Below are positions 9,001 through 12,000 of a stretch of DNA of 64,000 bases, piece after piece. The position numbers were made by a program. Numbering within the stretch: position 1 is the stretch's first letter; every line of letters starts with the position of its first letter. The stretch lies in the NCBI RefSeq assembly GCF_041248615.1, contig NZ_CP158426.1. One strand, given 5' to 3'. Source of the stretch: Escherichia coli (GTDB lineage: Bacteria > Pseudomonadota > Gammaproteobacteria > Enterobacterales > Enterobacteriaceae).

Positions 9001-12000
9001 GGGAGAATTCAGGTAATCCCCCTTTCACACTTTGTACATATCACAGCCAAAGGACAGACCAGATTGAAGTGGTAAAACCGATCGTGCACACTACGCAGTC
9101 TCACAACTAACAAGAGGTTATTATCCTGATGGATCAGGTTGTTGTTTTTCAAAAGATGTTTGAGCAAGTGAGAAAAGAGCAAAACTTCTCCTGGTTTTAT
9201 TCAGAATTAAAACATCACCGTATTGCACATTACATTTATTATCTGGCTACGGATAACATCAGAATTATTACTCACGATGACACGGTTTTGTTATTAAGAG
9301 GAACCAGGAACCTGTTAAAAGTTAGTACGACCAAGAACCCTGCTAAAATAAAAGAGGCCGCATTGCTTCATATTTGCGGAAAATCAACATTTCGGGAATA
9401 CTGTTCAACACTGGCAGGCGCGGGCGTTTTCCGGTGGGTTACTGATGTTAATCATAACAAACGCAGTTACTACGCCATTGATAATACGCTTTTATATATT
9501 GAAGATGTAGAAAACAATAAACCATTAATCTAGCTAAAGTTGGAAGCTTAAGAAATGCTTCATAATTCAGTAAGGCATTAGCATAATGGAAATAAAAGTG
9601 CAGAGACTATCCCTATGGATGATATATACTATCTTTTTATTGCCACCCATAAATAATCACCAGGCCAATACTATCAAATTGATATTTGAAATGTGATTAC
9701 TTGACTTTCTATAAGTTATTTTATAACGGTTAACAAATTTATAAAACCAACGGGCGTGCCATACGCCCGTTTCAATACTTAACGCACATGTGTTTTGGTT
9801 TAGTCATCATCCGGTTATATGTATTTTAGCCAGGAATGGGTTAAACCATTCCTATATAACTAAAAAATTGAAACCTTATTCTCATGTCATGCTTATATTC
9901 GTCATTATCGTTATATAAAAAGGCCAACCATAATGTTTAGCAAATTGGCACAAAGTAGTATAAAGGCTATGTTTTAATTACAGGATGTTCAGTCATTTGA
10001 ATGTATAACATTTTAGCTAAACAAATCTAAAACGAAGTGAATAATTTAATGTTTTCACTAAATCTCATTTTGTTTAATATCTATTGAGATTTCTTGCTTT
10101 AAATTTTGTTTTATATAAACAATGGTTTTAATTTTTGATTAATTTGTTTTTTGGGGAGTAATATACACATATGCAAAGTCAAGAAATGAACATCCAAATG
10201 AACTATATTAAGCACCGTGGGATAAGACATAACAAATGAAGTGGATAGTAATTGACACGATAATTCAACCTACATGCGGCATATCTTTTTCAGCCATATG
10301 GGGTGATATGAAAATGATCATCTGGTATCAATCTACTATATTTCTCCCTCCTGGCAGTATATTTAAACCGGTTAAATCTGGTATTATCTTTAAGGATAAA
10401 GAATACCCTATTACTATTTATAATATCGCACCATTCAACAAGGATTTATGGATTTTACTCAAAAGCAGTCAAGAGTGTCCTCCAGGAGAAAGCGAAATAA
10501 CAAATAAATGTTTACATAATAGTTGTATTATAAAAATATGCCCATATGGACTCAAGTAATGGGCTTCATATAAATATGCTCGACATGCTATTAATAATAT
10601 CCACATAAATAAAACAACGGGCGTGTTATACGCCCGTTTCATTATTTAACACATGTAGAGATTACATGTTCTTGATGATCGCATCACCAAACTCGCTACA
10701 TTTCAGCAATTTAGCGCCTTCCATCAGACGTTCGAAGTCATAGGTTACGGTCTTGGCGTTGATTGCGCCTTCCATACCTTTAACAATCAGGTCTGCGGCT
10801 TCAGTCCAGCCCATATGGCGCAGCAGTATATAAAAATTATGTATTCAACTCGCTGATATTTAATCATAAATATTATTTTCTTGTCTTTGTATTAGCCAAA
10901 ATCAACTTTATTCAACCGTTTGATTTCATTGACGTTCGTTTTTATTTTGGGGAAAGATTTTCTCTACCATTTATATCAAAATTACAAGTCTACATTTTAT
11001 TAACATCTCAATACATGTGTGGCCTTGCAAGCCATTGCGAGGCCTTATGTGTCTCAGTTTTGTCCCGCCTTGTATTACGACTTGCATAGCCAATGAAGAT
11101 AAACGTGACGACAAACAAAGCAGCTGTCTTCTTTTCTTTCACACTTTCCCCACTCAGCAGCATGCATACCTTCTACTATAACTGTAGTGAATGTCTATTA
11201 TGAGCGAACTGCGGACATCGTGGAGACAACATGCTGCTGGGTGCGGATATCCCATGGCACGTCATATCGCTCGCCGTATTACTTGTTATTTTTTTGAAAC
11301 GAGAAGTTGATACAATTCCTTCAGGGATAAGGCTAATAACTCATTCTTCCTGATGAGATCTTTATCAGCGTCTATACCCTCTGCGCATGATTCATTTAAA
11401 TAGTTCAGTGTTTCCTGATCATCATCCAAGCATTCATAGCTGCCTGAATAAAATTCATCGCAACTTGCTTTGTTATTTTTGTCAATGTAACCAATGCATT
11501 GAATCACGCCTTTAACAACTTTAGCAGCAGAAAAAACAAAGTAACTGCAGTCATTTATATAGCGTTCAATATCAAAAATCATATAAAAATAGTGCATAGA
11601 GTGTTTTTCAATTTCAAACTCACTTGAAATCATAGCTATTTCACATTCAAGGTCTTTCAGACCATCTAACATTATGGAAAGTTTACATTGTTTTTCTTGC
11701 ACAGTTTCATACTTAAATGACTCTCTCCCCTTTGCCCTGACATTTATTCTTTCTTCAATTGCATAAATATAAGCAGGATATACACGCGACCACACTTGGT
11801 TTATTTTTAGGATTAACCGGCCTCTTTTCAGCCTTTCTTTTGTAGCTATAAATTCTGCATATAGCGCAGCATCCTCTTCGCACCATACATCAACTTTTCG
11901 TTTATAACCCAACTTTAATTCTTTCCCTACGCATTCAGGAAACAAAGGATCAAAGTCCTTTAAGTATTCAAACTCACTTAGATAGAATCCTGTCTCATAA

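What the first reader, a model, noticed from the sequence alone, without database searches (positions are those of the whole stretch)
9741..10827. Nested icd 3'-end remnants: iraM lies between two copies of the icd terminator region
The icd terminator hairpin and adjacent sequence occur three times: next to real icd (62399-62447), with the displaced icdC fragment (10602-10650), and as a shorter coding-free copy at 9741-9792. AT-rich iraM sits between the latter two. This looks like the footprint of successive integrations at icd, with iraM as cargo left by an older, decayed element.
Basis: seen in the sequence. Interest (0 to 1): 0.45.

Follow-up and report, generated by a model that had tools for sequence, protein, structure and literature searches.

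The report
iraM flanked by icd terminator copies
The stress-regulator gene iraM of E. coli sits in a small (~0.87 kb) module bracketed by two copies of the terminator of the neighbouring icd gene, most likely the last scrap of an old mobile element that once integrated at icd; this is an ordinary kind of genome scar, newly pinned down for this gene.

Summary
The icd terminator hairpin (AACGGGCGTGyyATACGCCCGTT) with about 25 flanking bases occurs three times: 9741-9792, 10602-10650 and 62399-62447. None is expected by chance.

The 9741 copy has no icd coding sequence beside it. It carries the native icd-downstream flank, the same flank that abuts the single terminator in iraM-less E. coli.

iraM and the extra terminator copy form one ~867-bp indel. 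It is present in 3936 of 5426 complete genomes and exactly absent in 1037. Its presence does not depend on whether a prophage now occupies icd.

Several lines support the core idea, an older decayed icd-integrated element with iraM as surviving cargo:
- IraM belongs to a phage protein family and is a moron in Stx2 phages.
- A rare variant locus (19 genomes) keeps a 5.9-kb island with an intact ymgB-like gene, an iraM allele, prophage-type trkG and an e14/Citrobacter-type icd cassette.
- The window's module is a deletion derivative of such an island.
- One living strain shows two elements stacked at icd.

No integrase or icd' remnant survives, so the mechanism is inferred. This is a new example of a known kind, of modest interest.

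The parts
9129..9533 (+). ycgX (DUF1398; PHROG 413). Left neighbour, present in both iraM-plus and iraM-less genomes. Phage-type gene, possibly the remnant of a still older element.
   Evidence: ORF; annotation; PHROG hit E 1.5e-41. A 70% homologue sits in an E. albertii lambdoid prophage between Nu1 and the lysis genes.
9586..9696 (+). ymgL, an annotated small ORF between ycgX and the native icd-downstream flank. Absent from the variant (V) locus.
   Evidence: RefSeq annotation of the identical record NRZ14408 mapped to the window; absence from V.
9694..9740 (.). Native icd-downstream flank (TGATTACTTGACTTTCTATAAGTTATTTTATAACGGTTAACAAATTT).
   Evidence: It is contiguous with the single terminator in iraM-less E. 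coli. It is homologous to the sequence downstream of the icd terminator in Citrobacter (75% over 100 bp, E 3e-9; shuffle p = 0.0075 and 0.036).
9741..9792 (-). Copy 3: displaced icd terminator (hairpin 9749-9771, T-tract complement ATAAAAC, truncated spacer ending ACATGT). No icd coding sequence follows.
   Evidence: Terminator-like only in the icd (-) orientation. Derived changes are shared with K-12, where the stem has decayed further.
9793..10601 (+). iraM module: upstream region with ymgK (9933-9977), a 22-codon remnant of a ymgB-like gene, iraM, and the iraM 3'UTR. AT-rich.
   Evidence: Present in 3936/5426 genomes. Positions 9840-10207 and 10231-10563 are homologous to the V island at 70% and 79%. 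Composition.
10171..10239 (+). 22-codon ORF ([22 protein letters not shown]). Its first 11 codons are the 5' end of the ymgB/AriR-like gene that is intact in V. Its stop overlaps the iraM start (ATGA).
   Evidence: Conserved in K-12 and M7424.
10236..10559 (+). iraM (anti-adaptor of RssB), 107 aa.
   Evidence: 93% identical to proteins named IraM. PHROG 4407, E 1.9e-49.
10602..10650 (.). Copy 2: icd terminator attached to the displaced icd 3' end. It now serves as a bidirectional terminator for iraM (+) and formerly for icd (-).
   Evidence: The iraM 3'UTR is homologous to V up to the point where V has its own terminator.
10662..10825 (-). icdC: displaced last ~54 codons of icd. This is the 3' end that served icd before the present prophage arrived. 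It is of the phage-21-like 'AGC' class.
   Evidence: It differs at 5 positions from phage 21's icd' fragment and is identical to the icd 3' end of prophage-free M7424.
10826..62335 (.). Body of the current lambdoid prophage or island. sitABCD starts at 12743, near the icdC end; the integrase gene is at 61193-62335.
   Evidence: The int/attP module is 96-100% identical to phage 21 and relatives. Not otherwise analysed.
62347..62392 (.). Three arm-type integrase sites (TTTTGGGGAA, complement of YYTTCCCCAAAA).
   Evidence: compared with the phage 21 attP annotation.
62399..62447 (-). Copy 1: phage-borne icd terminator, now the working terminator of icd.
62449..63699 (-). icd. Its last 164 bp (62449-62612) are supplied by the prophage.

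Best explanation
Serial accretion at the icd attachment site explains the locus.

Shown:
- icd-targeting phages (phage 21 and e14 types) carry a replacement cassette made of the icd 3' end, the stop codon, a spacer and the terminator.
- Each integration installs a new cassette on icd and pushes the previous one outward.

Inferred:
- The ancestral E. coli arrangement was ycgX-ymgL-flank-terminator-icd. This is the arrangement still found in iraM-less, B2-like genomes.
- An older element (E1) integrated at icd. It carried its own cassette plus cargo that included a ymgB-like gene and iraM, and probably trkG.
- The native terminator (copy 3) was displaced to the far junction.
- Deletions then removed three things: the displaced icd' fragment together with the E1 backbone, most of the ymgB-like gene, and everything between the iraM 3'UTR and the T-tract of E1's terminator (copy 2). 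What remained is an ~867-bp module.
- Much later, the present phage-21-type prophage integrated at the same core. It displaced copy 2 with icdC and brought copy 1.

Present roles:
- Copy 2 works as a shared convergent terminator for iraM and, in prophage-free strains, for icd.
- Copy 3 is largely vestigial.
- The two ~50-bp direct repeats allow clean loss of iraM.
For: 1. The indel is exact. iraM-less genomes join copy 3's left flank to one terminator and icd. The missing length is 867 bp, equal to the repeat spacing. Counts: 3936 genomes with the module, 1037 with the intact empty site.
2. The module does not depend on the current prophage. M7424 has no prophage and has iraM. GPEC102 has no prophage and no iraM. 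U13A has a prophage and no iraM.
3. Copy 3's flank is the native type. It is homologous to Citrobacter flanks. Copy 2's left flank shows no homology beyond the T-tract.
4. Copy 3 keeps a T-tract only in the icd orientation and is decaying in K-12.
5. IraM is a phage family. It matches PHROG 4407. Homologues at 60-63% identity occur in 46 phage records, mostly Stx2 phages, between stxB and nanS-p. Another sits on an island with an integrase.
6. The variant locus V (19 genomes) has, in order: ycgX, X', an intact ymgB-like gene, iraM', a terminator, trkG (90% identical to Rac trkG), an IS5 remnant, a 455-aa gene, a Citrobacter/e14-type flank, the hairpin and icd.
7. The window keeps only 11 codons of the ymgB-like gene. 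It shares the iraM 3'UTR with V up to the terminator.
8. Stacking at icd is seen today. Strain VTB97584v has iraM-icdC-[lambdoid prophage with trkG]-icdC-[e14-like element]-icd.
9. Cargo lies at the icdC-proximal end in every element seen.
10. The window's icdC is phage-21-like: it uses the Ser codon AGC, while all chromosomal outgroups use TCA.
11. B2 empty sites carry three different cassette types to the right of an invariant left flank.
Against: - No integrase, arm site, att core or icd' remnant lies beside copy 3 or between iraM and copy 2.
- The iraM upstream region has no match in the phage collection. Its only hits in viral contigs are E. coli prophage calls that over-extend to ycgX.
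- The V and window modules are only 70-79% identical, while their flanks are 94-96% identical. They may come from separate acquisitions rather than one event.
- Polarity is not rooted. Of the other Escherichia species whose icd downstream region was readable, E. whittamii and E. sp. E1V33 lack the ycgX block next to icd; in E. albertii a prophage abuts icd and the far side was not seen.
- One iraM-less strain with non-B2-like flanks (GPEC606) suggests at least one secondary loss or allele exchange.
- V's gene order (iraM then trkG, convergent) is not collinear with the canonical lambdoid late region.
Confidence: 0.6

Rival explanations
1. The module, or a larger precursor, inserted directly at the terminator. 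A site-specific or illegitimate event had its crossover just downstream of the icd stop codon (around ACATGT). The element carried only a terminator copy, not an icd 3' fragment. The ~50-bp repeats would then be attL and attR, and no icd' remnant ever existed beside copy 3.
For: Repeat homology stops sharply at ACATGT, about 12 nt before the icd stop, with no icd coding trace beyond it. The repeat has the shape expected of att-flanking identity, bounded on one side by the crossover and on the other by the end of the carried homology.
Against: No recombinase is known or seen for such a site. All icd-associated elements observed use the core 164 bp inside icd. The left boundary of homology is simply the terminator's T-tract, which selection alone would preserve. 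V has no second repeat.
Confidence: 0.15
2. The V-like island (ycgX-X-ymgB-iraM-trkG-...-icd) is the ancestral E. coli state. The window type arose when a ~240-bp piece (ymgL-flank-terminator) from another strain was patched in between ycgX and X by homology-facilitated illegitimate recombination. iraM-less genomes are later deletions between the two terminator copies.
For: In V, ycgX and X' are directly adjacent. ycgX (DUF1398) and trkG both occupy the Rz-Nu1 moron position in lambdoid prophages, so ycgX...trkG could be one phage fragment. The 50-bp repeats could mediate deletion.
Against: V's icd-adjacent flank is about 95% identical to Citrobacter and e14 cassettes, so it looks imported. 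The window and B2 flank is the diverged, species-specific type. V is rare: 19 genomes against 1037 empty and 3936 filled. The model has no source for the E. coli-type flank. All empty sites seen have the TT loop, none the CC loop of copy 3.
Confidence: 0.12
3. Same origin as the best explanation but opposite polarity for the polymorphism. The module was already fixed in the E. coli ancestor, and the 1037 'empty' genomes lost it secondarily by recombination between copies 3 and 2.
For: The module is old: it is 93% identical between the window and most strains, against 96-97% for the adjacent ycgX. GPEC606 lacks iraM, yet its terminator and icd 3' are identical to copy 2 and icd of iraM-plus M7424, and its flanks are non-B2-like. 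BH100's single copy equals the copy 3 flank plus the copy 2 right half.
Against: U13A and GPEC102 carry a Citrobacter-like spacer that matches neither copy 2 nor copy 3. No empty site examined retains copy 3's CC loop, T>C or +GC. A crossover would therefore have to fall within the ~10-17 nt left of the loop every time. Outside E. coli no IraM was found (PMC4045071).
Confidence: 0.25
4. The 9741 copy is an unrelated hairpin or a generic repeated element (REP-like) that resembles the icd terminator by chance.
For: Short GC-rich hairpins are common. A sub-threshold Rfam hit (tpke11, 24.7 bits against a gathering score of 43) shows that generic terminator-like models can match here.
Against: Zero matches are expected in shuffles. 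The identity extends into the non-stem flanks. Only three copies exist in 64 kb, all tied to icd. The genome-collection scan found the hairpin next to icd in 7 of the 8 stretches it returned.
Confidence: 0.01

Closest known systems
Phage 21 / e14 integration into icd with a phage-borne replacement 3' end (Hill et al. 1989; Wang et al. 1997, cited in PMC6379469 and PMC12803456; phage 21 record OL657228)
   Same: Copy 1 with the int gene, three YYTTCCCCAAAA arm sites and the 164-bp icd' fragment is a phage-21-type attP module, 96-100% identical. Copy 2 with icdC is the classical displaced fragment. The cassette logic also explains copy 3.
   Different: The literature I could search describes two copies (icd and icdC). 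The third, coding-free terminator copy beyond iraM, and iraM lying outside e14 or the prophage, are not described there. Copy 3 has lost its icd' part and has no integrase.
Tandem accretion of genomic islands at one att site, leaving arrays of degenerate direct repeats (general concept, from my own knowledge, for example islands at tRNA genes)
   Same: Successive elements use one site, and older ones are pushed outward and decay to cargo flanked by att-derived repeats. This is seen live in strain VTB97584v.
   Different: Here the repeat unit is a protein gene's 3' end plus its intrinsic terminator. The oldest repeat has been whittled down to the terminator alone.
IraL on the potB island of UPEC CFT073 and iraM-like morons of Stx2 phages (Hryckowian et al. 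2014, PMC4045071; phage 1717 NC_011357)
   Same: Same protein family (59-67% identity), carried on mobile or island DNA, AT-rich, with its own promoter.
   Different: iraM at icd has no remaining mobile backbone. PMC4045071 states that 'iraM is found on the e14 prophage'. The sequence shows it lies outside e14 and outside the prophage, beyond icdC, and is present in prophage-free strains.
Cargo ('moron') regions at the att-proximal b-region end of lambdoid prophages
   Same: In every icd element examined, accessory genes sit next to icdC: sitABCD here, mcrA in e14, mcrC/AAA-ATPase and DUF262 in VTB97584v. The iraM module lies in the corresponding place relative to copy 3.
   Different: For iraM the rest of the prophage is gone, so the position is inferred.

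Membership tests
icd-targeting phage cassette (phage 21 / e14 type) | Carries the last ~164 bp of icd up to the att core | tested here: met
   Met for copy 1 (62449-62612) and copy 2/icdC (10662-10825). NOT met for copy 3: no icd coding similarity.
icd-targeting phage cassette (phage 21 / e14 type) | icd stop codon followed by spacer, intrinsic-terminator hairpin and T-tract | tested here: met
   All three copies have the hairpin and T-tract in the icd orientation. Copy 3's spacer is truncated at ACATGT.
icd-targeting phage cassette (phage 21 / e14 type) | Adjacent tyrosine integrase and arm-type sites | tested here: not met
   Met only for copy 1 (int 61193-62335; three TTTTGGGGAA sites at 62347-62392). 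Nothing comparable lies beside copy 2 or copy 3. Copies 2 and 3 are therefore filed as relics, not as active att sites.
Genomic island / decayed integrative element | Flanking direct repeats derived from the target site | tested here: met
   43-51 nt repeats at 86-88% identity, spacing 867 bp.
Genomic island / decayed integrative element | Presence/absence polymorphism with a precise empty site | tested here: met
   3936 genomes filled, 1037 empty. Junctions were read in U13A, BH100, AF16 and GPEC102.
Genomic island / decayed integrative element | Atypical composition and mobile-element relatives of the cargo | tested here: met
   GC 0.25-0.35. IraM matches PHROG 4407 and has homologues in 46 phage records. 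The V island carries prophage-type trkG and an IS5 remnant.
Genomic island / decayed integrative element | Recombinase or mobility genes within the element | tested here: not met
   No such ORF in 9793-10601, and none in the V island either.
IraM/IraL/RssC anti-adaptor family | Sequence membership | tested here: met
   93% identity to clusters named anti-adapter protein IraM. Caveat: the precomputed label is PF11183 (PmrD), but a direct Pfam scan gave no hit at E<=0.01.
IraM/IraL/RssC anti-adaptor family | Binds RssB and stabilises RpoS; induced by low Mg2+ through PhoPQ | not testable with these tools
   Known for K-12 IraM from the literature (PMC4045071 and references therein). Not tested for this allele.
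Rho-independent terminator | GC-rich stem-loop followed by a U-tract on the transcribed strand | tested here: met
   Copy 2 qualifies on both strands; copy 3 and copy 1 on the - strand. Folding z-scores for copies 2 and 1 on the - strand are -5.1 and -3.5; for copy 3 it is -1.3. Activity was not measured.

The most novel reading that the evidence does not exclude
The ~0.87-kb iraM module with its terminator-derived repeats is not just a scar. It would be a unit that can still move or be exchanged precisely. The icd terminator hairpin would act as a recombination hot spot or site for an unrecognised (possibly phage-encoded) activity, so that strains switch iraM on and off as a cassette. In addition, the fused 22-codon ymgB-derived uORF (ATGA overlap) would provide a new translational control of IraM.
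Probability: 0.07. Interest if true: 0.6.

Novelty: new member of a known kind. Interest (0 to 1): 0.35.

Why it matters
It corrects a statement in the literature. iraM is not on e14, nor on any current prophage. It sits in its own relic module beyond icdC.

It gives a precise structural basis for the known iraM-plus / iraM-less polymorphism among E. coli lineages: about 72% against 19% of complete genomes.

It points to the likely source of a regulator of the general stress response, namely cargo of an icd-integrating lambdoid element, with a less decayed sister island still extant.

It shows that the icd site records at least three generations of integration. This is useful for prophage-boundary calling, since IMG/VR predictions over-run to ycgX, and for reading icd MLST alleles, whose 3' end is repeatedly replaced.

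It does not reveal a new mechanism.

Tried and rejected
- I looked for a decayed icd' fragment, att core or prophage-arm similarity to the right of copy 3. Nothing exceeded shuffles.
- I looked for extended homology of copy 2's left flank to chromosomal or phage flanks. None was found. The shared left boundary ATAAAAC is just the terminator T-tract, so it says nothing about the recombination history.
- I looked for terminal inverted repeats or transposon-like ends of the module. None was found.
- I searched the phage collection with the iraM upstream region and found no match. The viral-contig scan returned only E. coli prophage calls over-extended to ycgX.
- The single genome-contig scan with the hairpin gave E. 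albertii, E. whittamii, E. sp. E1V33 and three Citrobacter. None has the ycgX block at icd, so it could not root the polymorphism. It also missed E. coli itself.
- The supplementary tables of PMC4045071 (strain lists) are not held. Mehta 2004 and Wang 1997 are not held either.
- My first literature search was swamped by ICD-10 papers.
- The JNEC-KY203 partial hit is only an IS1-mediated deletion.
- The Rfam hit (tpke11) is sub-threshold and I treat it as chance.
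Full report
**What is in the window.** The window is E. coli and is 100% identical to strain NRZ14408. On the + strand the order is:
- bluF 6683-7972
- bluR 8177-8908
- ycgX 9129-9533
- ymgL 9586-9696
- terminator copy 3, 9741-9792
- ymgK 9933-9977
- iraM 10236-10559
- terminator copy 2, 10602-10650
- the displaced icd 3' end (icdC), 10662-10825, minus strand
- a ~52-kb lambdoid prophage or island, with sitABCD near this end and an integrase gene at 61193-62335
- three arm-type sites, 62347-62392
- terminator copy 1, 62399-62447
- icd, 62449-63699, minus strand

**Observation check.** The 23-nt hairpin occurs at all three places, with 0, 0 and 2 mismatches; both mismatches lie in the loop. 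No match is expected in shuffles. Similarity of copy 3 to the other two runs from ATAAAAC (the complement of the icd terminator's U-tract) to ACATGT. That is 43 nt at 86% without gaps, or about 51 nt with two small indels. No icd coding similarity lies to the right of copy 3, and there is no fourth copy in the window. The region between copies 3 and 2 has 25-35% GC.

**The module is a clean indel.** In 5426 complete E. coli genomes, the 809-bp insert (9793-10601) is found in 3936. In 1037 genomes the left flank of copy 3 is joined directly to a single terminator and icd. I read such junctions in U13A, BH100, AF16 and GPEC102. The missing length is 867 bp, which equals the repeat spacing.

Occupancy of icd by a present-day prophage is irrelevant:
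- M7424 has no prophage and has iraM with both copies.
- GPEC102 has no prophage, no iraM and one copy.
- U13A has a sit prophage, no iraM and one displaced copy.

So iraM and the extra terminator always travel together, but not with the current prophage. It is not a valid refutation of an older, fixed remnant.

**Which copy is native.**
- The ~45-55 bp left of copy 3 are the E. coli version of a flank found downstream of the icd terminator in Citrobacter. BLAST gives 75% identity over 100 bp, E 3e-9. The alignment is, and shuffle tests give p = 0.0075 and 0.036.
- Copy 2's left side shows no homology beyond the U-tract.
- Copy 3 looks like a terminator only in the icd orientation, although nothing is now transcribed into it from that side.
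- Copy 3 carries derived changes shared by K-12 and the window (loop TT>CC, T>C, +GC). In K-12 it has two further stem mutations.

Copy 3 is therefore the displaced native icd terminator, now largely vestigial.

**Cassette turnover at icd.**
- The int-arm sites-terminator-icd' module next to icd is of the phage-21 type.
- e14 in K-12 carries a longer cassette with a Citrobacter-like flank of more than 100 bp and a compensated hairpin variant. Cargo genes lie between that cassette and intE.
- To the right of the hairpin, E. coli genomes are a mosaic. B2-like empty sites share one left flank but carry three different spacer/icd' types.
- The window's icdC uses the Ser codon AGC, as does phage 21 (5 differences in 164 bp). 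All chromosomal outgroups use TCA.
- Strain VTB97584v shows stacking directly: iraM-icdC-[decayed lambdoid prophage with trkG beside the lysis genes, xis and int]-icdC-[e14-like element with xisE and intE]-icd.
- In every element seen, the accessory cargo lies at the icdC-proximal end.

**iraM is mobile-element cargo.**
- IraM matches PHROG 4407 over its full length, and YcgX matches PHROG 413.
- Homologues at 60-67% identity are morons between stxB and nanS-p in Stx2 and other lambdoid phages, in 46 phage records. Another sits on an island with an integrase and IS21.
- IraL of CFT073 is on the potB island, and the family is reported only from Escherichia, Shigella and Salmonella (PMC4045071).
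- That paper places iraM 'on the e14 prophage'. The sequence shows it lies outside the prophage, beyond icdC.

**A less decayed sister island.** Nineteen complete genomes, and many draft assemblies, carry a variant I call V. Its order is bluR, ycgX, X', an intact 86-aa YmgB/AriR-like gene, iraM' (79% nt, 70% aa), its own terminator, trkG (about 90% identical to the Rac prophage gene), an IS5 remnant, a 455-aa gene, a Citrobacter/e14-type flank, a single hairpin and icd. V has no ymgL and no copy 3.

Comparison with the window shows:
- The window's upstream region 9840-10207 is homologous to X' at 70%.
- The window keeps only the first 11 codons of the ymgB-like gene, then lacks about 430 bp.
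- The ~46-bp iraM 3'UTR is homologous to V, with none of 3000 shuffles reaching the observed score. The homology runs up to an A-rich tract. There V continues into iraM's own terminator, while the window continues into copy 2.

The window's module is thus a deletion derivative of a V-like island. That island is bounded on the icd side by a phage-type cassette.

**Best explanation (confidence about 0.6).**
1. Ancestral state: ycgX-ymgL-flank-terminator-icd.
2. An icd-integrating element brings its own cassette and cargo, including ymgB-like, iraM and probably trkG. The native terminator is displaced.
3. Deletions remove the displaced icd' fragment, the backbone, most of ymgB-like, and everything from the iraM 3'UTR to the cassette's U-tract.
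4. Much later, the present phage-21-type prophage integrates.

The cassette mechanism, present-day stacking, the exact indel, the phage affinity of IraM and the derivative relationship to V are shown. The integration of the old element itself, the order of the deletions, and the polarity of the polymorphism are inferred.

**Weak points.**
- No integrase, core or icd' relic survives.
- X has no phage match.
- The V and window modules are far more diverged than their flanks, so they may be separate acquisitions.
- The outgroups I obtained lack the ycgX block at icd, so rooting is open.
- GPEC606 hints at secondary loss or allele exchange.

**Rivals.** They are: direct insertion at the terminator (0.15); V-like ancestry with a patched-in terminator (0.12); secondary loss in the empty genomes, which concerns polarity only (0.25); and chance (0.01).

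**Novelty and interest.** Integration at icd with 3'-end replacement, and iraM as horizontally acquired DNA, are both known. The third terminator copy, the exact 0.87-kb module, its independence from e14 and other prophages, and its relation to the V island appear undescribed in the papers I could search. It is a new instance of a known kind, of modest interest.

Noticed in passing
window 10171-10239: A 22-codon ORF ([22 protein letters not shown]) with a strong SD-like run upstream in K-12. Its first 11 codons derive from the ymgB-like gene, and its stop overlaps the iraM start (ATGA). It is conserved in K-12 and M7424 and is unannotated. It could couple iraM translation to this leader.
   Followed up: partly
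L049 9100-15230 (also L041, L044-L048, L050): A rare alternative locus in 19 of 5426 complete genomes: ycgX, ymgB/AriR-like gene, diverged iraM, trkG, IS5 remnant, a 455-aa protein with only weak, uncharacterised family hits, then icd. The phylogroup of these strains and the function of the 455-aa protein (weak PHROG 11707 hit) were not determined.
   Followed up: partly
L051 (NZ_CP178707.1 2593000-2642900): Strain VTB97584v has two elements stacked at icd, giving three icd 3' copies plus copy 3. One is a decayed lambdoid prophage with trkG, McrBC-like and IS elements; the other is an e14-like element with DUF262.
   Followed up: partly
L035 1900-2330 (K-12 W3110 icd/e14 junction): The e14-borne icd cassette has a compensated hairpin variant (AACGGGAGCGTTACGCTCCCGTT) and more than 100 bp of flank resembling Citrobacter braakii sequence downstream of icd. 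This suggests e14 captured its cassette from a Citrobacter-like host.
   Followed up: partly
window 10826-13700 and 61193-62447: The current element has a phage-21-type int/attP and carries sitABCD (from 12743) at its icdC-proximal end. The same sit-bearing element sits at icd in B2 strains (U13A, BH100, AF16). It resembles the NC-SV prophage described in PMC12803456.
   Followed up: partly
L003 3640-4360 (GPEC606); hit H3: IS200C is inserted exactly between the native flank and the terminator U-tract in an iraM-less strain. Another strain (FFFEB2) has two IS200C copies in the ycgX-icd interval. The terminator hairpin may be an IS200 target.
   Followed up: no
hits H38, H39, H145, H257, H261: O157:H7 genomes match only the hairpin plus icd 3'. 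The ycgX-iraM side is missing or replaced, although O55:H7 TB182A has the module (H69).
   Followed up: no
L024-L034 (IMG/VR contigs): Many predicted 'viral' contigs start exactly at the ycgX start codon. Prophage callers therefore extend icd prophages across icdC, iraM and copy 3 into ycgX.
   Followed up: yes
L008 (DYWT01000019.1): A 5.2-kb contig binned as a Sporosarcina psychrophila MAG carries an enterobacterial icd 3' end and terminator. Its icd 3' fragment is identical in protein to the window's. This is probably contamination or misbinning.
   Followed up: no
window 10236-10556: The precomputed domain label for IraM clusters is PF11183 (PmrD), but a direct hmmscan of this IraM against the Pfam copy gave no hit at E<=0.01.
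   Followed up: no
window 10588-10657 (-): A sub-threshold Rfam hit to the sRNA family tpke11 (24.7 bits against a gathering score of 43) lies on terminator copy 2. It is probably a generic terminator resemblance.
   Followed up: no
L009 8560-9360; L010 1-2378: In E. whittamii and Escherichia sp. E1V33, the gene downstream of icd is a YebC/YeeN-like regulator followed by ycgN. The whole ymg/ycg/blu block that separates icd from minCDE-ycgN in E. coli is therefore absent there.
   Followed up: no
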